Positions 549-58,400 of a stretch of DNA of 64,000 bases are shown here, one piece after another (the stretch's first letter is position 1; every line of letters starts with the position of its first letter). Below the pieces are notes generated by a model. The model saw nothing but the letters and a program-made list of their open reading frames with translations. It made no database searches and was not told the DNA's origin. Source of the DNA: Trypanosoma brucei (lineage: Eukaryota); the NCBI GenBank assembly GCA_000002445.1, contig CP000070.1, positions 768,001 to 832,000 of the forward strand. Direction: 5' to 3'. The position numbers were made by a program, and so were the translations under genes.

Positions 549-551
<3 letters not shown>

Positions 552-629
<78 letters not shown>

Positions 630-1753: not shown

Positions 1754-1815
1754 GTGGGTTTTGTCTTCTCCTCATTTACTTACGCGTTTTTACTTTTACT
1801 CCCGTTGTTTGGTAA
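1754..1815 (+). promoter_or_regulatory. Polypyrimidine tract, putative trans-splicing / polyadenylation signal upstream of the first CDS
   Basis: A long T/C-rich run (ttttgtcttctcctcatttacttacgcgtttttacttttactcccgttgtttgg) lies about 270 nt before the first in-frame ATG of the downstream gene. In trypanosomatids such tracts direct SL addition at a downstream AG. This is an inference; the actual splice site is not determinable from sequence alone. Confidence 0.4.
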
Positions 1816-2087
1816 TGAGAGCACTTCGCTTCGCTTCCGCATGATCAGGAGTACGTCACCTTTAAGCAATTACTCACAAAACATATATGTATGTTTTTAT
1901 ATACATACCTGCGCGCATACGTTTTCCCTCCTGCACTCAAAAAAAAAAAAACAGCAACTTTTGTTTCACTTTTGACAATACTTAGTATATCCCAGTGAAC
2001 AGACCGCGCCTCGCTGTGTTGGCCGATTTTCCGTCCTCGCCTGTTTTTGTCACTATCGTTATTAACTGTCGCGCCCCACCCGCGTGT

Positions 2088-5000
2088 ATGTTTCGGGTCC
2101 GAAGGCTTGCTGGGTTTATACAATGTTCCCCATGCGGAAAGATGGGCCCATTGAAGCAACAAACACGTCGCTACACCCCCATATGGAAGTCTGATCCGGC
2201 TGTCGATAACGTCGCTCCCCTTCGAGACGAGGATGAGCGACGCACCTTGTGGGCGGAGGTGGGCCCCATCTCAGATGTTGGTAGTGCCGTCACCGCGTGG
2301 ATACGCTTCGGAAATGATCCCGTCCTCCATACAGCGGTTCCCACCATGCTTGGCGGGAAGTTTCGAAATCAGCAGCGGGAGAAGGAGTCGCTTCTGCCCA
2401 ACTCGAGCTCTCCTTTTGCGTATGTGGAGGATTACATGGGTACTAACCTTGTTTTTGGCTCTCCAGTGCACGCTAAGGAAAGCGCGGCGGTGTGGGCGAC
2501 TTACTTCGAGCGACGGTATGCCAGTCGACTGCGGTTAAGCCGCCGCACCGTCGCGAATTATGTGGGGCTCATCAATTCACCGGAGGTGTTTGATGATGAA
2601 TCGGACCGACCGGAGACGCGATGGTCACAGGATACTTTTTTTCGGGAGTGCGCCTACTTGTCCGAGAAATTCCTGAAGGAAAAAGTGTCAAACATGCAGC
2701 AGTTTGAGGCGGCCTTGAAACGAGCTTCACCGGAGGCGTATCTCGCCTTCTTTGACGCCTTTCAGCAACAAACCCAAACGCAAATTCCTCTCCCCTCACC
2801 GAGTGTGTGGCATTATGAGGGAGAACGCCGGAAGCAATGGGCAGAGAAGTTTATTAGCATCTCCCACAAAGCGCAGGCCTTCTTCAAGGATGTTCTCTCT
2901 GAAGACGTGAAAAAGTACCAGGAGGTTCCTGGGAAATTGTTGCAGAAGGTTAAACCTGTCTTAGCGGATGTGGGGAAGATATTAGTGAAGCGACACGAAC
3001 GGTGGTTGAAGGGTCGCGTGTGGACCTCCCTTACCGAAGAGGAAAGGGAGGCGTACTGCATGAAGGAAGTAAAGCGCCAGCAGATGCAGGTGGAGGATGG
3101 CGAATTTGATCCCATGATGGAGGACGATGTCGACGATACAGAGTTGGAAGAATGGCAGCGTGAGCATGATGCCATCATGGAACTTATGAACTCACCCATT
3201 GATGGGCTCCATTTCACTACTCTGGAACTGTGGTTGCATGCGATGCGTTGCGAGGAGTTGGAAACGGAACACATCTATACTAGTGCTCGCGTGCGTGCCG
3301 TTCAAGTCGCGGCTAGGAAGAAACTGTATGACACAACCTCGTACGAGGAGGTGATACAAGCAGTGGTGGAATCTATTGCCCGCGGTACGTTAGATTTGGG
3401 AGCTGGGGTACTTCGCCCGCACTTTAACGAAGTGTGGTGCCAGCTGAACTACGCCAAGTTTGGGTCATCAACCATAACGCAACACACGACTACGTCCCGT
3501 CGACAGTTGCTCTTTTTCCACGCTGGGTCGTTGAAGGACATCGCTGCAACCGCCACACTTTATTATGCAACGAAACCCCTGAGCAACTCACTGGACTACG
3601 CATCTCCGTACAAATATCGTCGGTCGTTGATCACTCTCTGCTCTAACTACGGAGTGGAGACTGCGTACACAACTCAACGTCCCCTGCTGCGCAGTGCAGC
3701 CAACCTTGCACGAGCGGAGGATTTAATTCACGCTGTTGTCACAGCCGCTGCACAACCCTTTGGGGAACGACGTCGGGCAGCCACGCGCGATCTTCACATG
3801 GAATTTCAGCGTTTGGCTGTTCCGGTGGAGCGGGTTATTGTAGCTAACCCTGTTTCTGCACTTTTGGAATCTGGAGCTGATCCTGATGAGAAGCCAGTGG
3901 AAGGTGAGAAGGTGAATATGTGGCCACTTGGTGCAAAACGTGTCGTGTTGTATAAGTGGTCAGCACCTAACGTGGAAAAGCTCAAGGCAATGGAGAGCGA
4001 TGCAGCACCCGCTGTTAGCGGGTCATCGCTGACGGCTGAACGTCTGCGGGAAATTCAAGAGCTTAAGCGCCGTGGGTTTCTTGAGGTCTCGCTCTGGCGT
4101 CGCGTCACCGCACAGGAGAGGAAACAGAGGAATGAAATTGTAGAGGCGAAGAAAAAGCAAGTTGAAGAGGTCGTACGGACTGTTCCGTCTTTGGCGCACC
4201 TCCACCAATACGCGACTTCTCTCTACAGTCGCATTGAAGAGAGAGTGGCGTTTCCCACCGAAACCTCGACCGTCACTGACACCACCAATATGAAGGAGGA
4301 AACCAATAAGCCTCTAGAGGATTCAGAGTGGGAATTTGCGGTTTTGCTTGATGATCGAGTTCTACTTAACAAGGAGGAATCAGTTGAGTTGTATCTCCCA
4401 TACAGGGACGCGAATGGGGAGTTACTTGCCCAAGGCGAATACCGCGCGCTGGTGCGTGCATTTGATTTGGAGGCAAACCCCAATCTCCACCCGGCGTACT
4501 GCAGCGTGGGATATTCAGAGTCGTTTCACGTTTTCGACGCTCTACCACAACTTATAGCTCAATTCTTTCGTGTGAAAGATGCGACAGCTGAGGCAGCTGG
4601 TGTGACGCATATCCCCGCCGCCGACTTTACACCATTTTGTGCGTTTCTTCGCGATGCCGGTTTGGACGTTCCACTGCGCTGTGAGTTTGAGGCAGGACAG
4701 GCTGTAACAACGGATGGTGATGTGTACATGGATTATTTTCTGCAACTTCTGCGTGGGGAGGCTTTCCACCAGAGCCACGCGCAGGCGGGTCTTACTGAGG
4801 CACAGCGCGCTATTGAGCCCCTCTGTCGCGCGCACTGGGTTGTTCATCACCCGGGTGCTGACGAGTCGGAGTGGGCTACCGCCCGCCGTAGTGTATTGGA
4901 TCACGCAATGCAGCATGAACGTGAGTGGTGGTTCCCCAATGAAATGCTCGATGTGAAGGATGTTGTCACTGGAAGTACAAATGGACTGACACCACAGATG

Positions 5001-5585
5001 TATCCCGCTGCCGTGCGTTACGGCGTGGAGCTCTGCACGGTGCTAACAGCAGAGGGGAAGTTCGTGGACGAAAGGGGTTCGGGGCTCTCTGCAAGATGTG
5101 TTGTTAACGGGACGGGAGCCGCAGAGTCGGTTGTATTTGACACTGCAAACTGTAATGGCACCAACACTACATCGGTGGAGGATGCTTTGCGAGTGGCCCA
5201 TGGTGCACTGCGAAGCGCACAGGACAGACACAACACGCTTGCAGCTTTCCGCCTTGGACCCCTCTCAAAGCAGTCGCAGGTACTCTTGTTCTGCGGTGTG
5301 AATGCGTATGAGTTTGGTGGTAAGTACGCTCGTACGTATGCATATGCCTTTGAAAAAGCCAAAAAGGAGCTGGAGGTGACGGCAGCATCCGGGTTTATGG
5401 CTCCAAGCCTCAGTCATGAGGACATAGAGCGTCTCTCGGATCAACCAACCACTTCACCATCTGTCGACCGCTTTGCCTCCACCACTCATCCCGAGCAGCG
5501 CAAAGCACAGTTTGTTCCTCGTGTGGGTCCAGGCTCGACACCCCTGGAGGACCCAGCTGCCGATCAGAAATCAGAATGGAGTTGA
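2088..5585 (+). CDS. Large conserved hypothetical protein of about 1,166 aa with no domain I can recognise
   Basis: The open frame runs 1995-5585, but the track start at 1995 is GTG. The first in-frame ATG is at 2088 and a second at 2142 (MGPLKQQ...); either may be the true start. The frame is long and uninterrupted with typical trypanosomatid codon usage. It is mostly alpha-helical or acidic, and no recognisable catalytic motif is present. Confidence 0.7.
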   Translation: MFRVRRLAGFIQCSPCGKMGPLKQQTRRYTPIWKSDPAVDNVAPLRDEDERRTLWAEVGPISDVGSAVTAWIRFGNDPVLHTAVPTMLGGKFRNQQREKESLLPNSSSPFAYVEDYMGTNLVFGSPVHAKESAAVWATYFERRYASRLRLSRRTVANYVGLINSPEVFDDESDRPETRWSQDTFFRECAYLSEKFLKEKVSNMQQFEAALKRASPEAYLAFFDAFQQQTQTQIPLPSPSVWHYEGERRKQWAEKFISISHKAQAFFKDVLSEDVKKYQEVPGKLLQKVKPVLADVGKILVKRHERWLKGRVWTSLTEEEREAYCMKEVKRQQMQVEDGEFDPMMEDDVDDTELEEWQREHDAIMELMNSPIDGLHFTTLELWLHAMRCEELETEHIYTSARVRAVQVAARKKLYDTTSYEEVIQAVVESIARGTLDLGAGVLRPHFNEVWCQLNYAKFGSSTITQHTTTSRRQLLFFHAGSLKDIAATATLYYATKPLSNSLDYASPYKYRRSLITLCSNYGVETAYTTQRPLLRSAANLARAEDLIHAVVTAAAQPFGERRRAATRDLHMEFQRLAVPVERVIVANPVSALLESGADPDEKPVEGEKVNMWPLGAKRVVLYKWSAPNVEKLKAMESDAAPAVSGSSLTAERLREIQELKRRGFLEVSLWRRVTAQERKQRNEIVEAKKKQVEEVVRTVPSLAHLHQYATSLYSRIEERVAFPTETSTVTDTTNMKEETNKPLEDSEWEFAVLLDDRVLLNKEESVELYLPYRDANGELLAQGEYRALVRAFDLEANPNLHPAYCSVGYSESFHVFDALPQLIAQFFRVKDATAEAAGVTHIPAADFTPFCAFLRDAGLDVPLRCEFEAGQAVTTDGDVYMDYFLQLLRGEAFHQSHAQAGLTEAQRAIEPLCRAHWVVHHPGADESEWATARRSVLDHAMQHEREWWFPNEMLDVKDVVTGSTNGLTPQMYPAAVRYGVELCTVLTAEGKFVDERGSGLSARCVVNGTGAAESVVFDTANCNGTNTTSVEDALRVAHGALRSAQDRHNTLAAFRLGPLSKQSQVLLFCGVNAYEFGGKYARTYAYAFEKAKKELEVTAASGFMAPSLSHEDIERLSDQPTTSPSVDRFASTTHPEQRKAQFVPRVGPGSTPLEDPAADQKSEWS

Positions 5586-6729: not shown

Positions 6730-7893
6730 ATGTTTTGTTTCTTCCAAAACCGCTGGGAGTCGGGTCTTGGTGCCCATCTAACCGAGGAACTCATTAGTAG
6801 CGCATTCAGCGATTTTGCGCCTTACGCGGGGGCGGAGCAGCAACAGACACGTTTCGTCCGCCGCCAAAGCGATGGGACAACCACCAGAGTTGCTTATGGG
6901 GAAGATGGGGGGTGGTCGGTAAGCATGGGAAATCCTTACGCTGGCGGCATATCTTTTGCAACGACACCAGATTTACTCTGTGATATGCAACTGCGCATAC
7001 CACTGAAGTTGGCTAGGGATGTTGTGGAGCAGAATAGCGAAAGGGGGATCATTGGCAGTGCCGACAACTGTGAGGTGCTTCCAGTTTCCAGAATCTCCCT
7101 AACACCCATAACGACACCCTACGATAGTCGAAGTCCTTTTCAGTATTCTGTGCCCCCTCCACTTGGTCCCACGGGTTGCTTTGGCATGGTGGAACTTTTG
7201 TACTCCTACGTGACACATGTGTATGGCGCTGGTTTACGGGTTGGACCGTTGTCCCTTCGAGCGACGGCTTCCCCGGGAGGCATGCCCTCAATAGACAATT
7301 CGTATGTGAGTGCTTTGGGCCAAACTGCCTGTCTCGTTGACGGTTCGTGGTGCGCTCCGTTGAGTGCCTTTCCGTCGTGTAACCTTACAGTGGCGCTGCA
7401 GCACCCCTTTATGGCCGTTGAGGGTGATACGCTTGCAGCAATTTGTTTGGAGAGTTCGGCGCCAAAAACACCAGAGGGACAAGGGTGCAATAATTTTCGT
7501 CTTCTTGTTGTGCAGACGCTTGCAACAAGTAATAGGCAAAACAAGCAGAATCCCAGTGATTCTCACTCGCATAGCTTCAGTTCGGTTCTCAGGGGCGACA
7601 AAAACTGGCGTGAGCTAGGCACACTCGTTGCTGTACAGAAATCATTTCGCAACCAACGCTTTCGACTCAGTGCTGCTGCTATGATACACGACCGTGAATT
7701 AGACTATGAAACCGCAGCTTTGGCGGATGTAACAGCCATATTTTCTAGACCAACGGTACTGCGGTTGGGTTTCAACAGAGCCCGCCGTGTTGCCATGGGT
7801 ATAGCGACAGAAATACTTAATGGACTTACCCTTACATTGGGTGTCCATTACACAGCGGGGGACTTGCGGTTTGGACTTGAAGCCGCCCTTTAG
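6730..7893 (+). CDS. Hypothetical protein (387 aa) with a beta-strand-rich C-terminal half
   Basis: ATG-initiated ORF immediately after a T-run. The C-terminal half shows alternating hydrophobic/polar dyads and ends ...LTLTLGVHYTAGDLRFGLEAAL. There are no TM helices. A beta-barrel assignment is speculative. Confidence 0.55.
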   Translation: MFCFFQNRWESGLGAHLTEELISSAFSDFAPYAGAEQQQTRFVRRQSDGTTTRVAYGEDGGWSVSMGNPYAGGISFATTPDLLCDMQLRIPLKLARDVVEQNSERGIIGSADNCEVLPVSRISLTPITTPYDSRSPFQYSVPPPLGPTGCFGMVELLYSYVTHVYGAGLRVGPLSLRATASPGGMPSIDNSYVSALGQTACLVDGSWCAPLSAFPSCNLTVALQHPFMAVEGDTLAAICLESSAPKTPEGQGCNNFRLLVVQTLATSNRQNKQNPSDSHSHSFSSVLRGDKNWRELGTLVAVQKSFRNQRFRLSAAAMIHDRELDYETAALADVTAIFSRPTVLRLGFNRARRVAMGIATEILNGLTLTLGVHYTAGDLRFGLEAAL

Positions 7894-8416: not shown

Positions 8417-9913
8417 ATGCTAAGGACAAATGGTAAGATTCTCAATGGCAAAACTCCCAGTAACGTGGTAGCAAAGTCCTCGGGGGTAAAGAAAAAGATT
8501 GTTAAGATAAAGTCGTCCTCTGCTCCGAAGCCTGTGGAATCTGCACTGACGGGGAACTACGGACGTGTCTTGTTTCAAATGGCGATATGTATCGCAGGCA
8601 TTTATGTATGTTTTGGTTTTTGGTCCATCAAGCAGGAGCGCATTATGACAAAACCGTACGACGCCGTTGTGGTTGTGGGAGGTAATACCACTGTGGTGTC
8701 GACGAAGTTGTCGACTGTGTTTGTCCTTGGGTTGGTGCAGGTGGTAATGGCAGTGGTGGTAAGTTGTGTACTTCTGCTGGCTGAGAGACTATATGCTGGG
8801 AAAAGTCAGAAGGCGGAAAAGGAAGAGACACAGAAGCCTAAACTGGAGAAGAAAAAAAAAGGAACCGTGAAACCAAAGAATGGAGAAATGGTGAACAGAA
8901 GGGAAGACAAGAAGGTGGTTGTCGGACGTACGGCGAGCAATAAACCAAAGAGGAAAACGGAGGAGGACAACACCGCTCTCTCGACAGGGGCAGATAAGGA
9001 GTTGGAAGCCAATAAAGCGTTTCGCAACGCGGTACTTATTGGGTTCACCAACGGCTTTGCGTCCATGTTGGGCTTCGCGGCGATGCGACGGTTGCCCTAC
9101 CCTGTGGTCCTCGCAACCAAAATGTCGAAAATGGTTCCAGTGATACTCGTTGGTTTCTTTTGGCACGGCACACGATACTCGCTGAGCAAGTGCCTTGCCT
9201 GTGCCCTCATAACAGGCGGCAGTTTTTGTTTTTACATGCTAGGAGAAGCTGGTGACGAGAGTCAAGCGCTAAAGAGTAAGACACGCAACAGAAGCGAAGT
9301 TGTGAGCTTGTTTGGCTTCGTGTTACTGTTTGTCAACCTGTTGGCTGATGGTTTCACAAACTCTACACAGGATAAACTGGTAAAGGTGCACGGCTGGACA
9401 AGTAATAAACTCATGTTTGTTACGAATCTTTCCACAGCTCTGTGGATTGGCGCCGTCCTGCTGCTCATGGAGTGCCTTCAGCCATTTGCCACCGCGTACC
9501 TCAGCATTAGTGAGCCCGTCACATTCTCCCCTTCTTTTGCGGCGTTTCACCCGTTGCTTCATCGGCTCGACGAATCGTTCAGATGGTTTCTGAGAGATGT
9601 AGCACCCTTCAATGACTTTTCGAAAACCATGGACTTCTTCAATCGGCACCCCGAGGCCTTGTACGATGTCACTGTAATGAGCGTACTGAACGCAGTGGGA
9701 CAGATGTTTATCTTCCGCACTATTTCATTGTTTGGGAGCCTCACCCTGACGGCGCTGACGCTGCTTCGTAAATCCTCAAGCGTTGTGCTGTCTATTATTG
9801 TCCACGGTCACAGTGTGACGCTGGAGCAGTGGTTTTCACTGGCTGTTGTGTTTGCTGGGGCCGTATGGGAAGGGCTTATTCACGCCCGCAAGGAGCCTGT
9901 AAGTAGTAAGTGA
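8417..9913 (+). CDS. Nucleotide-sugar (UAA/SLC35B-type) transporter-like membrane protein
   Basis: I count about 9-10 hydrophobic segments. The motif ...RRLPYPVVLATKMSKMVPVILVGFFWHG... matches the conserved SLC35B core (LxYPxQVLxKSCKxIPVM). A roughly 90-aa Lys/Glu-rich hydrophilic insert (KAEKEETQKPKLEKKKKGTVKPKNGE...) sits after the third hydrophobic segment. Confidence 0.6.
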   Translation: MLRTNGKILNGKTPSNVVAKSSGVKKKIVKIKSSSAPKPVESALTGNYGRVLFQMAICIAGIYVCFGFWSIKQERIMTKPYDAVVVVGGNTTVVSTKLSTVFVLGLVQVVMAVVVSCVLLLAERLYAGKSQKAEKEETQKPKLEKKKKGTVKPKNGEMVNRREDKKVVVGRTASNKPKRKTEEDNTALSTGADKELEANKAFRNAVLIGFTNGFASMLGFAAMRRLPYPVVLATKMSKMVPVILVGFFWHGTRYSLSKCLACALITGGSFCFYMLGEAGDESQALKSKTRNRSEVVSLFGFVLLFVNLLADGFTNSTQDKLVKVHGWTSNKLMFVTNLSTALWIGAVLLLMECLQPFATAYLSISEPVTFSPSFAAFHPLLHRLDESFRWFLRDVAPFNDFSKTMDFFNRHPEALYDVTVMSVLNAVGQMFIFRTISLFGSLTLTALTLLRKSSSVVLSIIVHGHSVTLEQWFSLAVVFAGAVWEGLIHARKEPVSSK

Positions 9914-11166: not shown

Positions 11167-12456
11167 ATGGCAGAGGGAGTACCGGCACCTTCTTCGTCAT
11201 TTGCACAGAAAATGCATCAATTGTTGCAAATCCGTGCGGAGCGACAGCCTCTCGCTGAGGGTTACATGCGCTGTCCACTAAACCCTACACATCAAGTCCC
11301 CATCGCCGCCATAGTAACGCACCTCTCAAAGGCACACCAGCAGGACTCGCTTGACATTGCACCCGATGCGATGTATGGCGTGAACACGCGCTCCAGGCGC
11401 AGTGAATTCCTTAAAGAACAACTTCAGAGGATGCAACCTGTGGATGAAAGTGATCTTAGCGAGAGCGGTTATTCTAATCACCGAAGGAAAAGGTACCGGC
11501 GCAGTTCGAGTCAGTCCTACAGTTCTGACATGGGCTCATCTTCCTCCTGCTGCTCAAATGGAAGGAGCAACGTGTCGCGACAGTCGAACTCCTCTCGAAG
11601 TAGCGGGAAGCATCGCCACTATGAAGAAAGGCCGTACAATAATAGAAGGAGGGAGGAGCAGCCTACGCAACGGTCCTTCCATGGGAATAACACAACAAAC
11701 TGGCACGATCCGTCTAACGTTTTCAAGAGACTCTTGGGTCGTTACCCCTTTGGGGCTTCTATCAACAAACAGCGTCTTACAGAGTTTTTAATCTGTTTTG
11801 GCCCTTTGCAGTCGTTTAATTTTTTGGCGAATGGCACTGAATTTGTGGTGGAATTCGAAAGTTCGGTGGCCGCCTCTAAGTGCTTACAAGCCGCCACGCC
11901 TAACCTTTTGATTGACGATGTTTGTGTGAGAATGTACCCGGTACCGTTACCAAGCCCCGGAGTTGCACCCGAATTTTCTTACGGGGGTGCTGAAATAATG
12001 CGGACCCCTCCACCATGGCCTGATGATGCGGCGCCTCCAACTGTTGTCTCGTCACTTCCAGCGGCGCAGCAGAACCAACCGTGGCCGCCTACTGACATAA
12101 CACCTTCCGTTGCAGTTGGGGTTGGAGCTGGGAGCAAATCAGTTGGTGTCCCTGTGCTGAGTAATGTGGACGACCTTGTAGATGCTTTCACATCAGTCAG
12201 CAGCGCACGGATAACGTCTAACACGGCAATACTTTCGTGTGCTGTGAGGACGACGTGTGGGAAGAATGTCACCACAGAGGACATATGGAAAGAATTGTGG
12301 CACTTTGGTGAGATGAGAAACATTTTATTGGTGGGGCCGCGTGTTGTAGTGGAATTCTCGGATGGCAGGGGTGTGAGGAGGGCAACCCAGGCAATGGAGT
12401 TGGAGCCGGGTAAATTCAAGTTCTGCAGTTTATTGGGCGAGGGTGAAGGCCGGTAG
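11167..12456 (+). CDS. RNA-binding-type protein with N-terminal CHHC-like zinc knuckle, Arg/Ser-rich (RS-like) region and RRM-like folds
   Basis: The N-terminus CPLNPTHQVPIAAIVTHLSKAH fits the U11-48K/TRM13/GTSF1 CHHC zinc-finger pattern (C-P-x-[DN]-x-x-H-x-V-P-x3-[LI]-x2-H-L-x2-C), except that His replaces the final Cys. An RS-like stretch follows (RRKRYRRSSSQSYSSDMGSSSS...SRQSNSSRSSGKHRHYEERPYNNRRRE). After that come two regions with RRM-like beta-alpha-beta character (FVVEFESSVAASKCLQAA; RVVVEFSDGRGVRRATQAME). Confidence 0.6.
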   Translation: MAEGVPAPSSSFAQKMHQLLQIRAERQPLAEGYMRCPLNPTHQVPIAAIVTHLSKAHQQDSLDIAPDAMYGVNTRSRRSEFLKEQLQRMQPVDESDLSESGYSNHRRKRYRRSSSQSYSSDMGSSSSCCSNGRSNVSRQSNSSRSSGKHRHYEERPYNNRRREEQPTQRSFHGNNTTNWHDPSNVFKRLLGRYPFGASINKQRLTEFLICFGPLQSFNFLANGTEFVVEFESSVAASKCLQAATPNLLIDDVCVRMYPVPLPSPGVAPEFSYGGAEIMRTPPPWPDDAAPPTVVSSLPAAQQNQPWPPTDITPSVAVGVGAGSKSVGVPVLSNVDDLVDAFTSVSSARITSNTAILSCAVRTTCGKNVTTEDIWKELWHFGEMRNILLVGPRVVVEFSDGRGVRRATQAMELEPGKFKFCSLLGEGEGR

Positions 12457-13167: not shown

Positions 13168-16100
13168 ATGTGGAATGAAGTTAGCGCTAGTGAAGTCGAA
13201 GCCCTTCTAGGCGAGTTGAGGGACATTGTCAGCGACCCCGTGGTTATGTCTGTCACAAAAAGTGGAGAGGACAAGCAGCTAATCTCAGAAGAAAAGACGA
13301 AACCCAAAGCCGTGGGGCGTGTGGGTTTCTCAACGTACGCCAGTGTTACGGAGAGTAGACGAACAGTTGTTCCTCTTTATGAGCGACTTCCACCCATCAC
13401 CCCGCCTGTTGTCTGCAGCATACGGGATGAATTAACCATGTCTGGCGCAGACACGTTGCGTAAAGGGTTTCTGCTACTGCCTAACCTCACTGGGGATGGT
13501 GAGGGCATGCCCCAACGGCCGATGTCGCCCAACGAAGTGCGAAGGCTTTTGTGTTGTGCGGAGAGTTCTGCACGAGGCGGTGCAGCGAATAATTCTGCAA
13601 CCTCACCGACTGCGGGGGAGGGGGGTGACGTTAAGGATAGTTACAGGGAACCCAACTTTTTGCCCATCATGTGTGCGAGACATATTTGTCCTGGAGGTAT
13701 TGTACCCCGGGCGCGTTGGGGCCATACTTTAACGGCTGTGCAAGGACACAAGCTCGTGCTATTTGGTGGAATGGACTTAAAGGAAGGTGATACGTCGGAC
13801 CTTTTTGAATATGACGCTCATCACGTCGTGTGGGACCCCGTGTTTGTTGCTGATGGTGTAGGTCCGGCACCCCGTACAAATCATGCTGCGTGTGCCGCTG
13901 AGGACCGCTGGCTGTACGTTAGTGGGGGGACAACTGCCCGTGGAACAATTATCCTCGGTGACATTTATCGCTTTGATACATGGACTCATGAGTGGAAATG
14001 CCTGTGGGAGTACAGAGGCATCGGCACCAGTGCCAGCAATAGCACAAGCAAGAATGAACCCACACCTCGTTTTGGACATTCAATGTTACATCGTGACGGC
14101 CGGTTGTACATTTTCGGTGGACGAGCACTCAAGCGCAATCAGAGTGGGTCACGGGGCGATGCCGTCACGTGCATGGCCTCCACTGATGTTTACGTTTTTT
14201 CGTTGACCAGTGGTAAATGGAAGAAACGCATTCAAGCTGGGAAGGAAAACACAGTGAGTGATGAGGCCAAAGCACCGGGGAGTGCGGGGCCATGTGCCTC
14301 AGAAAGGCAGGAAAGTGAGAATGCCGTTGAACTACCGCCTACGCGCCCCACTGTGCGGTTCCATCATGCGGCGTGTATTATGGATTCCACTATGTTTATT
14401 AACGGAGGTGTTGACGGTGACAGTGTTACATTAGCTGACACATGGGCACTCAATCTCAAGGAAGGGCGATGGATAAGATTGCACGATGGAAGTACAGCGG
14501 ATGCTCATCCACGAGAAAAGCATCATTTATTTGCCTGCGGCGGTTGCTTGCTTGCGGTTGGGGGTTGCAGCGCTAGCGACCGCCGTAGCTTAGTCTCTAG
14601 AAGATGCCGAAACTTTGTTGCGGTACTGGCTCTTGAAAGTGAAAACAAGTTGGGTTCTGTCTCATGGTTCCCACTGGCAATGGGGAACGCGGCGGCAGTG
14701 GTTCCAAACAGAAAATCGTTTGGTGCGGCCTTCAGTGGGGGGTTTGTGCACGTGTTTGGTGGCATCTGCGGATGCGAACCGCCCTCCAATACGATGGTAC
14801 GTTTTCTTGCGGCAGATGGTTACTTTGCGACAGACTCTACAATGGTTCCCTCTTCCTCTGCAGGCAACAAAGAAGGCGCTATTTCCATGATGCGTTCTGT
14901 GCGAGAGAGTGGCGACTTTGTCACGTATGACGCGTATATCCTTCCACGCAGCTGGGATGGTGATGTAGAAGTTGACACTGTGGCCAACAAGCCATTTGGC
15001 GTGCATCGTGCTTTGGTGCAGCAACGGGCTCCAAAGTTTTGGGAGGATGTTCTGCGCTGCCGGACAAGCGTTGCGAAGTCTATCATCTCCCCAATTGCAG
15101 ATGCGTCGTCCCAACTGGTTAATTTTGCATGCAACCCTGGGTTAGCGGAGAGCGGTAACGCCGATAATCCCACTGTGGGCTCTTGTAATCGCGCCGGTTG
15201 TGATGAGGAGCCCAATCAGGCGCATGTCACTGCGTATTACACGGAAGGGAATTCCCGTGTCCAGGGCCTATCAGTCTCTCTCACGGCAAACCAGTTGCAG
15301 TGTTTACTAGATTATATCTATTGGGGGGACATGCACCTCAGTATGCTCGCAGAACTGGATGACGATAACGTGTCTAATAGGGGGAGGGAGGACCTACAGA
15401 AAACCGCAGCTCAGGAAGAAGTCCGAACGGTACAGTCACTTATGCGCGCGGCGGAAGTCTATGAGTTACCCCTTCTCCATGCGCTCTGCAATGCACTCTC
15501 CTCGGGTAACATCAAGGAGCTAAGAGAAGCAAGGGAGAGATGCGGCGAGCAACTTCAGGAGGATCTGTTGCATTTGTTGGAAACCTCCCGTGGGGCTACT
15601 GCAACAGTTCTCTTTGTTGACCCACACACAAAACAGCAGGTATCGTGTTCTCTTCATCCGTTCATTCTGACTGCCTCCAACTCCTTCTTCAAGGACTTAC
15701 TTCGGCCTTTACTCACCGGTGAAAAGATGGCCTTCCAAATGGGATCCGTTTCCGCCAAACTGTGCGCGGCAGGACGGTACGCAGCCTCCAAGTCACGCCG
15801 TGGGATAGTTGTTGGGCCCGTGCCGATGCCATACTTGGCCGTGCAGCCAGTGCTCTGCTTCTTGTACACACGTCAATTGCAAATTCCGCGTGAGTCAGTC
15901 TTTGCCACGATGCTGGGATCTCGTCTTCTGGATGTGGCGCCCCTACAGGCATATTGCGAAACCATTCTTGCGCGGGAGGAGGTGAACTACGACACCGCAT
16001 TACACTTTTTCTCACTGGCGGGGAGGTATCAGGCTCCACTTTTGCAGGAGATCGCCCTACTGACGGCAGTGATGGGCTATGGGGTGATTCGACCCACCAT

Positions 16101-16254
16101 GAGAACGGTTGATTTGTCTGAGGAGGAGGTGAAGGAAATCGCTGCTGTTGCGGAGGAATTGGGAACCGACACGTGGGTACCTCCCCCACAGACATCTACT
16201 GTCGCGAAGACACGTGAGGAGTACCAAGCCCGGTGGGATGCGTCACTGCCGTAA
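13168..16254 (+). CDS. Kelch-repeat / tandem BTB-domain protein (LZTR1-like architecture)
   Basis: The N-terminal half has Kelch-propeller signatures (RARWGHTLTAVQGHKLVLFGGMD; PRTNHAACAAEDRWLYVSGG; PRFGHSMLHRDGRLYIFGG; RFHHAACIMDSTMFINGG; FGAAFSGGFVHVFGG). The C-terminal half has two BTB/POZ-like segments (FGVHRALVQQRAPKFWEDVL...; TVLFVDPHTKQQVSCSLHPFILTASNSFFKDLL...LAVQPVLCFLYTRQLQIP). Confidence 0.7.
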   Translation: MWNEVSASEVEALLGELRDIVSDPVVMSVTKSGEDKQLISEEKTKPKAVGRVGFSTYASVTESRRTVVPLYERLPPITPPVVCSIRDELTMSGADTLRKGFLLLPNLTGDGEGMPQRPMSPNEVRRLLCCAESSARGGAANNSATSPTAGEGGDVKDSYREPNFLPIMCARHICPGGIVPRARWGHTLTAVQGHKLVLFGGMDLKEGDTSDLFEYDAHHVVWDPVFVADGVGPAPRTNHAACAAEDRWLYVSGGTTARGTIILGDIYRFDTWTHEWKCLWEYRGIGTSASNSTSKNEPTPRFGHSMLHRDGRLYIFGGRALKRNQSGSRGDAVTCMASTDVYVFSLTSGKWKKRIQAGKENTVSDEAKAPGSAGPCASERQESENAVELPPTRPTVRFHHAACIMDSTMFINGGVDGDSVTLADTWALNLKEGRWIRLHDGSTADAHPREKHHLFACGGCLLAVGGCSASDRRSLVSRRCRNFVAVLALESENKLGSVSWFPLAMGNAAAVVPNRKSFGAAFSGGFVHVFGGICGCEPPSNTMVRFLAADGYFATDSTMVPSSSAGNKEGAISMMRSVRESGDFVTYDAYILPRSWDGDVEVDTVANKPFGVHRALVQQRAPKFWEDVLRCRTSVAKSIISPIADASSQLVNFACNPGLAESGNADNPTVGSCNRAGCDEEPNQAHVTAYYTEGNSRVQGLSVSLTANQLQCLLDYIYWGDMHLSMLAELDDDNVSNRGREDLQKTAAQEEVRTVQSLMRAAEVYELPLLHALCNALSSGNIKELREARERCGEQLQEDLLHLLETSRGATATVLFVDPHTKQQVSCSLHPFILTASNSFFKDLLRPLLTGEKMAFQMGSVSAKLCAAGRYAASKSRRGIVVGPVPMPYLAVQPVLCFLYTRQLQIPRESVFATMLGSRLLDVAPLQAYCETILAREEVNYDTALHFFSLAGRYQAPLLQEIALLTAVMGYGVIRPTMRTVDLSEEEVKEIAAVAEELGTDTWVPPPQTSTVAKTREEYQARWDASLP

Positions 16255-18189: not shown

Positions 18190-20016
18190 ATGACGGGGCC
18201 AACGCGTGCTCTGTTTCTGTCGAGCGGAATCAATTTGGGCCGACTCCGCCTGGCGGAGCAGTTCTCCTCCATGAATGGATGGCAGTCAAAAGAAGATCCC
18301 GCGTTTGACGCTTATGTCAAGGAGCGGAGGCGAAAGGAGAACTACGAGGCCTTTGACCAACGTGTCGAGCGGGGCTACGCCGCCGCCGCGAAGCTGCACA
18401 AAGCAGAGATTCAAAACGCCGTGAAGCGGCGACTGAAGTCGAGTGGAGCGAAGTTTACGGCAGAAACGCTACGTGAGATGAGTAGTGCCGTAACGGAGCG
18501 TCTGGCGTGGTTGCGTGACGTTTGGGCACAAATCGATTCTGATTATCGCAGTGGCGATTCAGCCCGTCAGGAGACGGCTGCACAGGAGATTTCTGCGGCG
18601 TTGCGCGGAGAACCAAACGATCACATGCGATGGGTGTACGAGACGAAGCGAGAATTGCGGTTTGCAGGACCCGTTGGTCGTCGTGCCATCCAAGAAGAAC
18701 TGCAGGCAGCTGAACTACCTGAAGTTTTGGACGAGGAGGTTAACCGCTACCACGATCTGAAACTCAACATGATGGAAATCGAACGTGAGGTGAAAGCCAA
18801 ATATGGTGTGGCTGGCCAGCAGCACTGGGCCGAACTGCAGGCAGCGAAGGATGAAGAGTACATACAGAAGCTAGATGAGGCCGCTGAGGTTTATAAGCAA
18901 CTTCTTGATCAAAGTGCTAGATTGGACGAGTCCCGCCGGTCGGAACTGCAACGGAGTTATGTAGAACGAGTTCACCAGGCACAAGTTCGTTTTAAGGCAG
19001 CCATGGAGCTTGAGGGTCAGCGTGAGCAACTCATTGAGGCTCACCAGGCAATGAAGGAAGAGAGAATGCGTACAGAGCGTGAAAAGAGACGGCAGCTGCT
19101 ACGTGAGGCAGCGGAACTTCGCGCACAAGGAAAGGAGAGCGCGGACGTTCTCACCGCACTGAAGGAACGACAACTCGATGCCAATGCAAAGCGGCAAGCT
19201 GAGTATGAACTGAAAGAATGTGAGGACATCCTCAAACGGAAGTCAGAGATGTTGGACATGATTGCTCACTTTAAGCATGATGTCGAGGAGCGGGAGGGAC
19301 GTGAAATGTTGCAGCGTCAGAAGAGTGATGAGGAGCGTCAGGTCAACGTTTTCGGCTTTTACGAGGAGGTGGGTGTCGAGGACGGACTTTCCATTAGCAG
19401 TGAAGGAACCACTTCCCAGGGTGTCTCCTCTGGCCTTGGCACTGTATCAACTTCTACCTCGTGTGCTAAGAGTGCTGATAGTAACAGCAGCGCACAACCA
19501 TCGCAAAAATTACGGAAGGAAGAACTGTGGAAGGCAATCAACGCCGACACGTACGAGGACCCGTTCCGCACTGTTCACCAGGCTCGTTTAGATGCCGTGA
19601 AAACTTATGATCCCGCGTATGCCCGAACCTTCCCGCTGAACCTTGTCCTCGGTCGCAAGTATTCTAGGCAGGGTGCTGGTGAAATGGCTGCGGGTAATGA
19701 GACAGACAAACAGATTCTGCAGAAAGGAAATAACATTCTCTACAGTTTCCAATGGGGTCTCAACAACGGCACTGTGCACGACCTCGATGCTGACGGAAGC
19801 ACGGATTACTTCATGGATGGCGCATTTCATGTGCGTGATAAAGAAACTGGCGATATTGACTGGCGCTACGAGAAGAAGAGGGGTGGTCCCGTGTTTAGAG
19901 GACCTAAATTTTATCGGCTTGGTGCACAGCGTGAGGCGGCAGACCCGGGTGAGCGGGCCATGGATCCCACTCCATACACTTCTACACCACGGGAACATAA
20001 GTGGCGTAGCAGCTAA
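18190..20016 (+). CDS. Coiled-coil protein (608 aa) with a globular C-terminal region; hypothetical
   Basis: ATG-initiated ORF. The central part, roughly residues 60-390, is charged heptad-like sequence rich in E/K/R/Q/L (e.g. ...EEYIQKLDEAAEVYKQLLDQSARLDESRRSELQRSYVERVHQAQVRFKAAMELEGQREQLIEAHQAMKEERMRTEREKRRQLLREAAELRAQ...). The C-terminal ~180 aa are non-repetitive. Confidence 0.7.
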   Translation: MTGPTRALFLSSGINLGRLRLAEQFSSMNGWQSKEDPAFDAYVKERRRKENYEAFDQRVERGYAAAAKLHKAEIQNAVKRRLKSSGAKFTAETLREMSSAVTERLAWLRDVWAQIDSDYRSGDSARQETAAQEISAALRGEPNDHMRWVYETKRELRFAGPVGRRAIQEELQAAELPEVLDEEVNRYHDLKLNMMEIEREVKAKYGVAGQQHWAELQAAKDEEYIQKLDEAAEVYKQLLDQSARLDESRRSELQRSYVERVHQAQVRFKAAMELEGQREQLIEAHQAMKEERMRTEREKRRQLLREAAELRAQGKESADVLTALKERQLDANAKRQAEYELKECEDILKRKSEMLDMIAHFKHDVEEREGREMLQRQKSDEERQVNVFGFYEEVGVEDGLSISSEGTTSQGVSSGLGTVSTSTSCAKSADSNSSAQPSQKLRKEELWKAINADTYEDPFRTVHQARLDAVKTYDPAYARTFPLNLVLGRKYSRQGAGEMAAGNETDKQILQKGNNILYSFQWGLNNGTVHDLDADGSTDYFMDGAFHVRDKETGDIDWRYEKKRGGPVFRGPKFYRLGAQREAADPGERAMDPTPYTSTPREHKWRSS

Positions 20017-20737
20017 ATGGAGGGGGAATACATGGATGCAACGAAGGAGGAAAACGACTGGCTACGGTGGTTAGGACGTTACGTTGGCACACTCTCTATG
20101 GTTGGCGGCCACAGAGGGAACACCTCCTGTTGTTGGTTTCTAGCTATCACTTTAGCGTAGTGACGGGGAATTGTTTTGCATGTGGTTTCACGTTGTTTAT
20201 GAGTGGAAGTAGTGGAGGGGGAGGGGCGCACTAGCAGGGTTGCCTCATCCTTCCTTCACAAACAAAGAATTCTTGCGTTGGTGCTGATTTTCATCAGGAG
20301 CAGCGTACTCCCCTCTGTATGTGTCCTCCCTTTCTCACAGAGCTCTCTTGTTTGCCTTTTCTGTTCGTTTTCCTACATCAGTAGAGTATTAGGGACGCCA
20401 CACCGCTTCGCCTCCGCTCTCACTGGTCGTACTAGAAGCAAAGCTCATCGTTTAATAACCTCATACAATTCTCCCCTGAAACCCGAGACAACTCCGGAAA
20501 CACAAAGGGGGAAGAGCAGCCCATACATTGTTCTCTACAATTTCAGACAACGTGGCTCGGAGTGGTGATAGCCTAGGTGGTGTCAGCCGCTGCGCCGCTG
20601 CCCCATAACAACGCGGGAGGAAAAGAAAAGCTAACGTGTATACAAAAAGCAAGTAACCGTCTGTGGGAAATTTTCCATATATACATTTGCTTTCAGCTAA
20701 GCATAGGAGCAGTTTCTTGCTGTTTCGCTGCGCCACA

Positions 20738-22342
20738 ATGGCGAAGCGCCGTGAAGTTGCCGATGATAGCGATGTATACGTGTTGGAGTTTCAAAAGAAC
20801 TACTCTGACACTACCCGACAATCCCTGATTGTTTCAGACGAAGTGCCTGACAGCACTTTACTATGGCGCAATATGGTGATGTTCACACTTCTCAAAATCA
20901 TTGGTTCGTACGATTCAGGGGCCTTCAGTGCTGCTGTTGGAGCTGAAAATGGCATTGCTGATGAATGGGGTCTCACGAATTTGGAGCAAGGAGCGCTTAG
21001 CGCAAGCGTATTTTTGGGATGTATGGTTGGCTGCCCGCTGGCGGGTCATCTCTTTTCTCAGTACAGCGCAAAAATCGTACTAATTCGAGTGCTCGTCCTT
21101 CACATATTTTTTACCTTCTGCTTCGCGACTGTTACGGTGTATGTCATCTCCATGGTGTCGCGGTTTCTCATAGGTGTAACGTTATCGTTCATTTTCGTAT
21201 ATGTTCCCGTATGGGTTGATGACTTCGCCCCGCGCGACCGGCAGTCCGTTTGGATGGCGTTGCACAATGCAGGAGTACCCGTGGGTGTTCTTGGCGGATA
21301 TCTGTGCGGTGCCATCCTTCCTTCATACACACGGATAAGCTGGGAGTGGGCTTTTTACTCCAAGTGCATCTTTACCGTTCCGGTGATTGTATATTTCTTA
21401 CGTGTCGATCACCGATCTGTTGACAGAAACAGCAGCAGGAAGAGTAACGTTCAAGGATCGCTAGGCATCGGGCACGGAGGGAACGGTTTGCCAACCAACG
21501 GTACAGAATCGGCAGTGAGACGGGGAAACGAAAATGTGTTTGACAGGTCAAGCGGGGCCAGAAATCTCGTTAGTTCGGCATGTGATGCCGTACTGCATAT
21601 ATGGAAGACCGCAGCTGTGCTCCTTGGTAACATTGAGTACACTTGCAGCGTACTTGCTATGTGCTCCCTCTACTTTGTTGTATCGGGTTTACAAAACTTC
21701 ATGACACAGTACCTTCACGCGGAGCCTTTCAATGCTTCCATGAAAACCATCATGGTTGGCTTCGGTACGGCGATTGTGGCATCTCCCATCGGCGGTGTGA
21801 TCACCGGCGGTGTGCTTCTCGATCGACTTGGGGGTTACCAACAAAACACGCGGCGGGTTATGATATTCACCACCGCATGGGGTGCCGGGGCCGCTTTTTT
21901 CAGTGTCTTATGTATTTTCGCTGGAAGCACCAGCGCACTTCTTGTGCTCATGTCGCTGATGCTTTTCTGCGGTGGGGCAGTTGTGCCATCTGGAAGCGGC
22001 CGAGTGATGGCTTCCCTTCCCGATACCCAACGACCCGCAGGTGCCGCGCTTGCACAGATGGTGTACAACTTAGTTGGGAACTTCAGCGGCCCACTGGTGT
22101 GTGGTTCCATCGCACAGTGGATGGGCGACCTGAAGTATGGCATCCGCGCCGTGTTCTGCTGCAGCGTCATAGGGCTCGTTCCCATGGTGATACTCCTATT
22201 CGCAGCTGACAGGCACCCCAGCGGTGTATGTGCTATGTCAAGTTGCGGCCCCGTTAGCACTGTGGTGGAGGAGCGGTTGGAGGTAAAAAGCAGTGGCGTT
22301 GTTGTAGAAAATGGGAATGATGACACTGTGGATGCCAAGTAG
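20738..22342 (+). CDS. Major-facilitator-superfamily (MFS) transporter-like membrane protein
   Basis: The track ORF starts at GTG 20663; the first ATG is at 20738 (MAKRREVADD...). I count about 12 hydrophobic segments in a 6+6 arrangement around a central hydrophilic loop. The loop after TM2 (GCPLAGHLFSQYSAKIVL) resembles the MFS G-x-L-aD-R-x-G-R-K motif. Confidence 0.6.
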   Translation: MAKRREVADDSDVYVLEFQKNYSDTTRQSLIVSDEVPDSTLLWRNMVMFTLLKIIGSYDSGAFSAAVGAENGIADEWGLTNLEQGALSASVFLGCMVGCPLAGHLFSQYSAKIVLIRVLVLHIFFTFCFATVTVYVISMVSRFLIGVTLSFIFVYVPVWVDDFAPRDRQSVWMALHNAGVPVGVLGGYLCGAILPSYTRISWEWAFYSKCIFTVPVIVYFLRVDHRSVDRNSSRKSNVQGSLGIGHGGNGLPTNGTESAVRRGNENVFDRSSGARNLVSSACDAVLHIWKTAAVLLGNIEYTCSVLAMCSLYFVVSGLQNFMTQYLHAEPFNASMKTIMVGFGTAIVASPIGGVITGGVLLDRLGGYQQNTRRVMIFTTAWGAGAAFFSVLCIFAGSTSALLVLMSLMLFCGGAVVPSGSGRVMASLPDTQRPAGAALAQMVYNLVGNFSGPLVCGSIAQWMGDLKYGIRAVFCCSVIGLVPMVILLFAADRHPSGVCAMSSCGPVSTVVEERLEVKSSGVVVENGNDDTVDAK

Positions 22343-58389: not shown

Positions 58390-58400
58390 GGACGCTGGCG

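What the first reader, a model, noticed from the sequence alone, without database searches (positions are those of the whole stretch)
13168..16254. Kelch-propeller followed by two BTB domains: an LZTR1-like architecture in a trypanosomatid
Most BTB-Kelch proteins are BTB-BACK-Kelch (N to C). Here five or more Kelch blades come first, followed by two BTB/POZ-like segments (FGVHRALVQQRAPKFWEDVL…LQCLLDYIYWGDMHL; then TVLFVDPH…FILTASNSFFKDLL…LCFLYTRQLQIP). This reversed Kelch-BTB-BTB order is the hallmark of LZTR1, a CUL3 substrate adaptor that targets RAS-family GTPases. Outside opisthokonts a conserved LZTR1-like CUL3 adaptor would be of interest, as would its substrate in a parasite lacking canonical Ras signalling.
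Basis: partly seen in the sequence, partly recalled or inferred. Interest (0 to 1): 0.55.

Follow-up and report, generated by a model that had tools for sequence, protein, structure and literature searches.

The report
Trypanosome Kelch plus double-BTB protein
This Trypanosoma brucei gene encodes a protein with the same domain layout as the human RAS-degrading adaptor LZTR1 (a six-bladed Kelch propeller followed by two BTB domains), conserved across trypanosomes and their free-living relatives, although these organisms have no recognised version of LZTR1's usual partner, cullin-3.

Summary
Window 13168-16254 (+) is a 1028-aa ORF identical to T. b. brucei TREU927 XP_845932.1 / Q57YB9 ("hypothetical protein, conserved").

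Architecture:
- Six Kelch blades (aa ~180-552), then two BTB units, each followed by helical BACK-like hairpins.
- BTB2 passes Pfam's threshold directly.
- BTB1 is invisible to Pfam in T. brucei, but the orthologous segment passes in 7 of 10 relatives scanned.

The family spans Euglenozoa (trypanosomatids, Bodo, a prokinetoplastid, diplonemids) and has conserved N- and C-terminal motifs that LZTR1 lacks.

The LZTR1 interpretation is only partly supported:
- The architecture and BTB2-BACK2 match LZTR1.
- An unidentified LZTR1-type protein (P0064) bridges BTB1 to BTB1 and BTB2 to BTB2.
- The propeller does not rank LZTR1 first.
- BTB1 does not match LZTR1 BTB1 directly.
- The CUL3-contact phi-x-E motif is not conserved.
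- Published work finds no CUL3-clade cullin and no BTB adaptor in T. brucei cullin pull-downs.
- A RAS-type substrate is untested.

Most likely it is a substrate receptor for a divergent kinetoplastid cullin. Interest is moderate.

The parts
13168..16254 (+). Complete ORF, 1028 aa plus stop codon; identical to T. b. brucei TREU927 XP_845932.1 / Q57YB9
13180..13233 (+). Family-specific N-terminal helix motif (aa 5-22, 'EVSASEVEALLGELRDIV'; consensus D.D..IE.LL.EL), conserved out to diplonemids and absent from LZTR1
   Evidence: helix 7-20 in the model (low confidence)
13315..13401 (+). Family-specific 'FSTY' and 'L..RL.PL' motifs (aa 50-78), followed by a variable, predicted-disordered linker (aa ~79-160)
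13654..14823 (+). Six-bladed Kelch beta-propeller (aa 163-552). It includes the conserved 'NFLPIMCAR' strand before blade 1 and a low-confidence insert at aa ~358-390 between blades 3 and 4
   Evidence: Pfam PF24681 2.3e-40 and PF24981 6.9e-24; strand pattern; hhalign against LZTR1 Kelch 99.7-99.9%
14857..15342 (+). BTB1 (aa 564-725): leading helix 564-580, strands 589-595 and 610-612, helices 614-620 and 622-630, strand 632-636, insert, strand 687-693, helix 707-719. It contains the family motifs 'G.HR.ILQQRAPKF...CR' and 'GNSRVKGL'
15064..15225 (+). Variable, predicted-disordered insert inside BTB1 (aa 633-686); absent from compact relatives such as P0028 and P0035
15388..15585 (+). Helical hairpin region after BTB1 (aa 741-806; helices 741-764, 768-779, 782-806): a reduced BACK/3-box-like linker
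   Evidence: pLDDT 87-97
15589..15978 (+). BTB2 (aa 808-937): strands 812-817 and 824-829, helices 831-837 and 839-849, hairpin 855-865, loop 870-877, strand 880-886, helices 889-901, 908-920 and 924-937; family motif 'ATVTVLFVDPHT'
   Evidence: Pfam PF00651; hhalign against LZTR1 BTB2-BACK2 97-98%
15997..16161 (+). BACK2-like helical bundle (aa 944-998; four helices)
16174..16251 (+). Family-specific C-terminal tail (aa 1003-1028; 'W.PP...K....Y..RW.AS', terminal helix 1016-1026), conserved out to diplonemids and absent from LZTR1

Best explanation
The gene encodes a Euglenozoa-wide, LZTR1-like multidomain protein that most likely acts as the substrate-recognition subunit of a cullin-RING ubiquitin ligase. 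Shown here: an N-terminal six-bladed Kelch propeller (the usual substrate-binding module) is followed by two BTB units, each with helical BACK-like hairpins. In a confident model the two BTB domains pack against each other like the two halves of a canonical BTB dimer, but within one chain. Inferred: this BTB1-BTB2 pseudo-dimer, with the adjoining 3-box-like hairpins, is the docking platform for a cullin N-terminal domain, and BACK2 and the conserved tails may mediate self-association or regulation. Substrates bound on the propeller would then be ubiquitylated. Kinetoplastids have no recognisable CUL3 and the canonical phi-x-E contact motif is not conserved, so the partner would be one of the divergent kinetoplastid cullins. 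TbCul-B and TbCul-C are the two with no known adaptors. The substrate is unknown.
Against: No cullin of T. brucei falls in the CUL3 (Cul-gamma) clade, and no BTB protein was recovered with the tagged cullins (PMC12816148). The lists of significant interactors contain only two chromosome-7 genes, neither of them this one. The phi-x-E motif is not conserved: BTB1 has 'CR.x' and BTB2 has 'L-x-x-G-(E/R/Q/F)' where LZTR1 BTB2 has 'FMPED'. Many BTB proteins do not bind cullins. No interaction, localisation or phenotype data were found for this gene. The pseudo-dimer is a prediction from a single AlphaFold run whose coordinates I could not inspect.
Confidence: 0.5

Rival explanations
1. It is a cullin-independent scaffold. 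The BTB1-BTB2 pseudo-dimer and BACK helices serve only for folding or oligomerisation, and the propeller tethers partners (for example cytoskeletal or flagellar components) without ubiquitylation.
For: No CUL3-clade cullin and no BTB adaptors in the cullin pull-downs. The phi-x-E motif is degenerate. An intramolecular pseudo-dimer satisfies the BTB dimer interface without a partner. The nearest solved propellers by the family profile are the N-terminal Kelch domains of axonemal dynein heavy chains and a flagellar-associated protein. Another T. brucei BTB protein is annotated at the hook complex in that paper's supplement.
Against: The closest structural relatives of the BTB-BACK units are all CUL3 adaptors, including their 3-box/BACK parts. 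The BACK-like hairpins are conserved. TbCul-B was never tagged and TbCul-C gave no adaptors, so absence from the pull-downs is weak evidence.
Confidence: 0.3
2. It is a true functional LZTR1 orthologue. The propeller binds a Ras-superfamily GTPase of the parasite and delivers it to a CUL3-equivalent ligase.
For: The architecture is the same as LZTR1's. BTB2-BACK2 is closest to the BTB2 of LZTR1-type proteins. P0064 links the two families. T. brucei has divergent Ras-like GTPases of unknown regulation, such as TbFRP and TbRHP (PMC3593210 and PMC3214021).
Against: The propeller shows no preferential similarity to LZTR1's. RIT1, the preferred LZTR1 substrate, was not traceable beyond flies in a survey of model organisms (PMC9068208). 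Conservation of the substrate-contact residues could not be assessed. The family's conserved N- and C-terminal motifs have no counterpart in LZTR1.
Confidence: 0.12
3. The resemblance is convergent. An ancestral Kelch plus single-BTB protein duplicated its BTB-BACK independently in Euglenozoa and in the animal LZTR1 lineage, so the resemblance to LZTR1 lies in architecture only.
For: PMC10146909 reports a single BTB-BACK in unicellular LZTR1 relatives and duplication in multicellular ones. About 500-aa Kelch plus single-BTB proteins occur in stramenopiles. Each BTB1 resembles BTB2-type units more than it resembles the other lineage's BTB1: Euglenozoan BTB1 against its own BTB2 gives 1e-8, but against LZTR1 BTB1 gives 0.03.
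Against: P0064, which is collinear with LZTR1 over both units, has a BTB1 whose best match is the Euglenozoan BTB1 (94.6%, 7e-8, in register, sharing the 'EG(N/K).R' motif). Its BTB2 best matches the Euglenozoan BTB2 at 4e-19. This argues for one older duplication. P0064 is, however, a single sequence of unknown taxon.
Confidence: 0.3

Closest known systems
LZTR1 (human Q8N653 and vertebrate orthologues; CUL3 substrate adaptor for RIT1, MRAS and KRAS)
   Same: N-terminal six-bladed Kelch propeller of the KLHDC/LZTR1 class, then BTB-BACK, then BTB-BACK. BTB2-BACK2 is recognisably homologous (hhalign 97-98%). BTB1 carries a disordered insert after the second helix in both. The two BTBs are predicted to act as one BTB1-BTB2 unit.
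   Different: About 24% identity in the propeller only, and BLASTP finds no significant C-terminal alignment. BTB1 does not match LZTR1 BTB1 directly. The phi-x-E motif (FMPED in LZTR1 BTB2) is not conserved. BACK1 is reduced. There is a 160-aa N-terminal extension with conserved helix and FSTY motifs, and a conserved C-terminal 'K....Y..RW' tail. The long propeller insert lies between blades 3 and 4, not V and VI. The organism has no recognised CUL3.
Unicellular LZTR1 relatives with a Kelch propeller plus a single BTB-BACK (about 500-aa stramenopile proteins, e.g. Vaucheria, Peronospora; PMC10146909)
   Same: Kelch-first order. The propeller is closely related (hhalign Euglenozoan against these 99.9%, E 5e-35). 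Their BTB matches Euglenozoan BTB2 at E 1.6e-14.
   Different: They have only one BTB-BACK unit, and no Euglenozoan N- or C-terminal motifs.
P0064 (834 aa) and P0068 (855 aa): Kelch-BTB-BTB proteins from unidentified eukaryotes in public read assemblies
   Same: Same three-module layout. P0064 BTB1 and BTB2 each match the corresponding Euglenozoan unit best. P0064 shares the 'EG(N/K).R' BTB1 motif.
   Different: They lack the N-terminal helix/FSTY motifs and the C-terminal tail. Their taxonomy is unknown. P0068 BTB1 is too diverged to place.
KLHL/KBTBD BTB-BACK-Kelch CUL3 adaptors and SPOP
   Different: Their domain order is the opposite, with a single BTB that homodimerises between chains. 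Their propellers are of the KLHL type, and those are absent from the profile hits apart from two marginal matches (KLHL7 Kelch domain, E 5.6e-4; a KLHL22 hit that falls in its BTB region).
T. brucei Kelch-only receptors of TbCul-E (Tb927.8.6140, Tb927.11.11450, Tb927.5.1980, Tb927.1.820; PMC12816148)
   Same: Kelch propeller proteins of the same organism that are tied to cullin ligases.
   Different: They are reported to lack BTB and F-box domains and to bind through a Skp1 paralogue. The present protein carries its own double BTB and was not among their interactors.

Membership tests
LZTR1 family | N-terminal six-bladed Kelch beta-propeller | tested here: met
   Six repeat signatures. Pfam PF24681 2.3e-40 and PF24981 (ATRN/LZTR1 propeller) 6.9e-24. 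hhalign against LZTR1 Kelch 99.7-99.9%, 307-319 columns.
LZTR1 family | Kelch placed N-terminal to the BTB domains (the reverse of KLHL order) | tested here: met
   Kelch at aa 163-552, BTB1 at 564-725, BTB2 at 808-937.
LZTR1 family | Two tandem BTB-BACK units | tested here: met
LZTR1 family | Unit-by-unit correspondence with LZTR1 (BTB1 to BTB1, BTB2 to BTB2), meaning a shared duplication | tested here: inconclusive
   BTB2 to LZTR1 BTB2 is best (4e-13 against 5e-8 for LZTR1 BTB1). BTB1 to LZTR1 BTB1 is not significant (0.03-0.04). It is supported indirectly through P0064.
LZTR1 family | Orthology by reciprocal best hit or phylogeny | tested here: inconclusive
   Forward direction: the family profile ranks the LZTR1 propeller fifth among solved Kelch domains (2.6e-22, against 1e-29 for a dynein heavy chain). 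No vertebrate LZTR1 was recognised among the 77 proteins with E<=0.001 in the exhaustive search with the C-terminal profile; only some of them were identified. The reverse search against the T. brucei proteome was not possible with these tools.
LZTR1 family | Long disordered loop between Kelch blades V and VI (aa ~325-385 in human; PMC8154269) | tested here: not met
   In T. brucei the long low-confidence insert is at aa 358-390, between blades 3 and 4. Only the long (1373-1417 aa) orthologues P0009 and P0010 carry an insert within blade 5.
CUL3 substrate adaptors (BTB type) | phi-x-E motif after helix alpha3 of the BTB (KLHL3 M83-S84-E85; PMC3616122) | tested here: not met
   Aligned positions: BTB1 'L-R-C-R-T-S' (family consensus C-R-x-x). 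BTB2 'L-L-T-G-E-K', where the acidic residue is shifted by one and replaced by R, Q or F in other members. LZTR1 BTB2 has F-M-P-E-D. The alignment in this loop is approximate.
CUL3 substrate adaptors (BTB type) | 3-box/BACK helical hairpin following the BTB | tested here: met
CUL3 substrate adaptors (BTB type) | Physical binding to CUL3, or presence of a CUL3 orthologue in the organism | not testable with these tools
   Literature only: no T. brucei cullin falls in the Cul-gamma (CUL3) clade, and no BTB proteins were found in the cullin immunoisolations. TbCul-B was untagged and TbCul-C gave no adaptors (PMC12816148).
LZTR1 family | Binding of RAS-family GTPases on the top face of the propeller | not tested
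   The primary structural paper for PDB 9mey was not in the library. The blade register between the two propellers is ambiguous (shifts by one blade).
BTB/POZ superfamily (Pfam PF00651) | Significant match to the BTB profile, or a BTB fold | tested here: met
   BTB2: 23.5-28.7 bits against a cut-off of 20.5, and hit in all 10 orthologues. BTB1: no hit in T. brucei itself, but 24-40 bits in 7 relatives, plus the fold.
KLHL / KBTBD (BTB-BACK-Kelch) | N-terminal BTB-BACK followed by a C-terminal KLHL-type Kelch propeller | tested here: not met
   The order is reversed and the propeller is of the KLHDC/LZTR1 class. KLHL propellers are essentially absent from the profile hits.

The most novel reading that the evidence does not exclude
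Double-BTB, Kelch-first adaptors of the LZTR1 type are ancient (older than the split between Euglenozoa and opisthokonts), not a metazoan or 'multicellular' innovation. In kinetoplastids this adaptor would dock, through a rewired interface lacking phi-x-E, onto one of the supposedly lineage-specific cullins (TbCul-B or TbCul-C). That cullin would then be a cryptic, highly diverged CUL3 equivalent. The protein would be a handle for assigning the orphan kinetoplastid cullins and for finding the ancestral substrate class of LZTR1.
Probability: 0.25. Interest if true: 0.6.

Novelty: new member of a known kind. Interest (0 to 1): 0.4.

Why it matters
Three things would follow if the protein is a cullin adaptor.

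1. It would be a BTB-type receptor conserved across Euglenozoa, in a lineage where cullin phylogeny recognises no CUL3 and where proteomics found no BTB adaptor. That gives a concrete bait for identifying the partner of the uncharacterised cullins TbCul-B and TbCul-C.
2. It would push the origin of the LZTR1-type layout, including the duplicated BTB, well outside animals. This contradicts a published statement that unicellular relatives have a single BTB-BACK.
3. The predicted intramolecular BTB1-BTB2 pseudo-dimer is a simple structural rationale for why this architecture carries two BTBs.

If the protein is cullin-independent, it is an ordinary conserved hypothetical protein with a tidy domain annotation.

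Tried and rejected
- **Full-length AlphaFold model** with 10 orthologues: mean pLDDT 46. I used it only for the strand pattern of blades 1-5.
- **AFDB50 fold search**, which would have shown whether LZTR1 models are the best full-length match: the library was not available.
- **BLASTP against mammalian LZTR1:** only repeat-level Kelch HSPs (E ~4e-9) and nothing significant in the C-terminal half.
- **C-terminal profile against PDB sequences:** only weak KLHL22/BTB hits. No solved LZTR1 BTB chain was found (only Kelch-domain entries were hit), so there was nothing to rank against.
- **First search with the human LZTR1 Kelch fragment:** returned only proteins of 512 aa or less. The tool appears to limit hits to about 0.55-1.75 times the query length. 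I solved this by re-querying with a 505-aa fragment.
- **First hhalign 2x2 test:** accidentally run in global mode. Repeating it in local mode gave the same conclusions.
- **Finding the TriTrypDB gene ID and interaction data** in the supplements of PMC12816148: the stored tables are truncated, and the two 1028-aa entries found are other genes.
- **Literature searches** by accession, and for LZTR1 plus Trypanosoma: nothing relevant.
- **The look-up of encoding contigs** for the window protein: not on record.
- **Checking RAS-contact residues:** abandoned, because the source paper was not found and the blade register is ambiguous.
- **Rejected idea:** I considered that the BTB1 insert sitting at the same position as LZTR1's BTB1 insert shows shared ancestry. 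BTB2 of the same protein has a loop at the equivalent place, so this is simply a permissive site.
Full report
**What is there.** Window 13168-16254 on the + strand is an uninterrupted ATG-initiated ORF of 1028 codons.
- Its product is identical to T. brucei brucei TREU927 XP_845932.1 / UniProt Q57YB9. GenBank annotates it as "hypothetical protein, conserved" and UniRef names it "BTB domain-containing protein".
- It is 98% identical to the T. b. gambiense protein. [quoted passage not shown]
- All 15 large ORFs of the window lie on the + strand, as expected for a trypanosome polycistronic unit.
- The gene is therefore real and already in the databases, but it has no functional name. I found no paper that mentions it by accession, and none that links LZTR1 to trypanosomes.

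**Checking the observation: the propeller.**
- Pfam gives strong Kelch matches: PF24681 at 2.3e-40 and the Attractin/LZTR1 beta-propeller model PF24981 at 6.9e-24.
- The sequence shows six copies of the blade signature "P.(R/K)..H...(F/V/I).GG" at aa 180-201, 233-254, 298-318, 394-414, 446-466 and 513-532.
- The first, low-confidence model nevertheless shows four-strand groups for blades 1-5.
- Profile-profile comparison with ten vertebrate LZTR1 sequences aligns the whole propeller, down to the closing "MVRFL"/"MYRFQ" strand (98.6-99.9%, E 1e-15 to 6e-32).

**Checking the observation: the two BTBs.**
- The first one does not register in T. brucei at all, so I tested it three ways.
  1. BTB1-only segments cut from relatives pass the BTB gathering threshold in 7 of 10. 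Bodo saltans scores 32.5 bits. The compact member P0028 scores 40.3 bits across profile positions 2-104 of 110.
  2. The BTB1 region matches the family's own BTB2-BACK2 region by hhalign at 93-95% (E 1e-8 to 3e-7).
  3. An AlphaFold model of aa 545-1028, built on a 22-sequence alignment of this family only and without templates, is confident (mean pLDDT 80.5, pTM 0.78). It shows the same beta-beta-alpha-alpha-beta...beta-alpha-alpha-alpha core twice, each followed by helical hairpins.
- Foldseek's best solved matches are BTB-BACK modules of CUL3 adaptors: KBTBD4, KEAP1, SPOP, KBTBD2, vaccinia A55 and KLHL3/11/22.
- One rigid superposition thus covers both BTBs. The model therefore predicts not only two BTB folds, but that BTB1 and BTB2 pack as an intramolecular pseudo-dimer.

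**The family.**
- An exhaustive profile search with the C-terminal half found 21 proteins below 1e-30, then a sharp drop to 1e-12.
- Members come from Trypanosoma, Phytomonas, two long (1373-1417 aa) forms of unnamed source, and Bodo saltans.
- More distant members come from the prokinetoplastid Papus and the diplonemids Lacrimia and Artemidia.
- They share features that vertebrate LZTR1 does not have:
  - an N-terminal helix "D.D..IE.LL.EL";
  - a "FSTY" motif;
  - "NFLPxM.AR" before blade 1;
  - "GNSRVKGL" inside BTB1;
  - "VDPHT" at the start of BTB2;
  - a C-terminal tail "K....Y..RW".
- Trypanosomatid BTB1 carries a variable disordered insert (aa 633-686 in T. brucei) that compact relatives lack. 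This insert is why Pfam misses it.

**Is it LZTR1? Evidence in favour.**
- The layout is LZTR1's (PMC8154269).
- BTB2-BACK2 matches LZTR1 BTB2-BACK2 (97-98%, E 8e-11 to 4e-13) better than it matches LZTR1 BTB1-BACK1 (E 1e-6 to 5e-8).
- P0064, an 834-aa protein from an unidentified eukaryote, aligns with mammalian LZTR1 in one collinear 778-column BLASTP alignment (E 4e-38). It also matches the Euglenozoan family unit by unit.
  - Its BTB1's best partner is Euglenozoan BTB1: 94.6%, E 7e-8, in register, with a shared "EG(N/K).R" motif.
  - Its BTB2's best partner is Euglenozoan BTB2, at E 4e-19.

**Is it LZTR1? Evidence against or lacking.**
- BTB1 does not match LZTR1 BTB1 directly (E 0.03-0.04).
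- BLASTP against LZTR1 finds only Kelch repeats.
- With the family profile, the LZTR1 propeller (2.6e-22) ranks behind a dynein heavy-chain N-terminal propeller (1e-29), KLHDC3, a flagellar-associated protein and a second dynein heavy chain.
- The long propeller insert is between blades 3 and 4, not V and VI.
- PMC10146909 states that unicellular LZTR1 relatives have a single BTB-BACK and that the duplication is a feature of multicellular organisms. About 500-aa single-BTB relatives do exist in stramenopiles.
- The Euglenozoan double BTB, and P0064, either contradict that generalisation or reflect independent duplication. The P0064 bridge favours one older duplication, but it rests on a single sequence of unknown taxon.
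- I therefore file the protein as LZTR1-like in architecture and a probable distant relative, not as a demonstrated orthologue.

**How it probably works.**
- Shown: a propeller (the usual substrate-binding module) sits upstream of two BTB-BACK-like units, and these are predicted to form one pseudo-dimeric platform.
- Inferred: the platform docks a cullin N-terminal domain, as in BTB-type CRL3 receptors. AlphaFold-Multimer modelling of LZTR1 likewise placed CUL3 on "the BTB1-BTB2 domain", with dimerisation through BACK2 (bioRxiv 10.1101/2023.01.10.523203).
- There is a complication. A 2025 study of T. brucei cullins placed only TbCul-A in a pan-eukaryotic clade, found none in the CUL3 clade, and recovered no BTB protein with the tagged cullins. 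TbCul-B could not be tagged and TbCul-C yielded no adaptors (PMC12816148).
- Only two chromosome-7 genes appear in that study's lists of significant interactors, and neither is this gene. The chromosome-7 assignment rests on the 2,205,233-bp record length and on my memory of the chromosome sizes.
- My best explanation (confidence 0.5) is a substrate receptor for a divergent kinetoplastid cullin, reached through a rewired interface.
- The main rival (0.3) is a cullin-independent scaffold.
- The RAS-substrate idea (0.12) remains untested. RIT1, LZTR1's preferred substrate, was not traceable beyond flies in a survey of model organisms (PMC9068208), and the substrate-contact residues could not be mapped reliably.

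**Novelty and verdict.**
- The gene is annotated but uncharacterised. Its LZTR1-type layout, its conservation across Euglenozoa, the family-specific motifs and the predicted BTB1-BTB2 pseudo-dimer are, as far as the searchable literature shows, undescribed.
- It is a new member of a known kind (Kelch/BTB adaptor-type proteins with LZTR1's domain order), not a new kind of system.
- Interest is moderate (0.4). It offers a practical bait for the orphan kinetoplastid cullins and a data point on the age of the LZTR1 architecture.

Noticed in passing
window 11167-12456 (+) and 8417-9913 (+); protein P0014: P0014 (1846 aa, from a read assembly) is a run-on gene model. It fuses a UAA-family transporter, a homologue of the 429-aa ORF at 11167-12456 (shared 'Y.RCPLN..H..P.AAIV.H' motif; no Pfam domain) and the Kelch-BTB-BTB protein. 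The gene order UAA transporter, unknown ORF, this gene is therefore conserved in another kinetoplastid.
   Followed up: partly
protein P0034 (Artemidia motanka, 926 aa): A diplonemid relative keeps the last propeller blade, both BTB units and the C-terminal 'Y..R' tail. In place of most of the propeller, its N-terminal half has three CCCH-type zinc-finger-like motifs (e.g. 'CMLFQDNRCKGYQRCNNIH'), and Pfam detects only a BTB. This may be a swap of the recognition module on the same double-BTB chassis, or a chimeric transcript assembly.
   Followed up: no
window 33911-49789 (+): The 5292-codon ORF is a dynein heavy chain (DHC_N1, DHC_N2, AAA modules, microtubule-binding stalk, Dynein_C). By coincidence, the nearest solved propellers to the finding's Kelch domain are the N-terminal Kelch domains of algal and ciliate axonemal dynein heavy chains. 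No Kelch family was among the Pfam matches to this ORF at E<=1e-4.
   Followed up: partly
window 1-2000: AT-rich stretch (GC 0.38, against about 0.50 elsewhere) with strong GC skew (+0.27) and simple repeats: (TA)n at 156-195, (AT)16 at 552-583, (TG)24 at 583-630. This is typical of a trypanosome intergenic or UTR region upstream of the first large ORF.
   Followed up: partly
window 1995-5585, 6730-7893, 18190-20016, 25578-28484, 56704-58041 (+): Five sizeable ORFs (387-1196 aa) have no Pfam match at E<=1e-4. Other neighbours are an MFS transporter (20663-22342), a CRAL/TRIO protein (30592-32280), a metallo-beta-lactamase-fold protein (50368-51543), an AP-complex mu subunit (52174-53472) and two protein kinases (54135-56003 and 58341-60248).
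   Followed up: no
alignment A1, proteins P0009 and P0010 (1373-1417 aa): The long orthologues carry large low-complexity inserts inside the propeller (after blade 1, in blade 4 and in blade 5) and inside both BTBs, always at loops that are short in T. brucei. The insert in blade 5 lies where LZTR1 has its V-VI loop in the hhalign alignment.
   Followed up: no
tool behaviour: the search for homologous proteins returned only proteins of about 0.55-1.75 times the query length: 162-512 aa for a 293-aa query, and up to 875 aa for a 505-aa query. Domain-sized queries therefore miss full-length multidomain homologues.
   Followed up: yes
proteins P0156, P0170, P0176, P0183 and others (~500 aa): This is a large set of stramenopile (Vaucheria, Peronospora, MMETSP transcriptomes) proteins with a Kelch propeller plus a single BTB(-BACK), 29-32% identical to the human LZTR1 propeller. 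Their BTB is the best-scoring partner of both LZTR1 BTB units in hhalign (E 4e-16 and 5e-21), which is consistent with a single-BTB ancestral form.
   Followed up: partly
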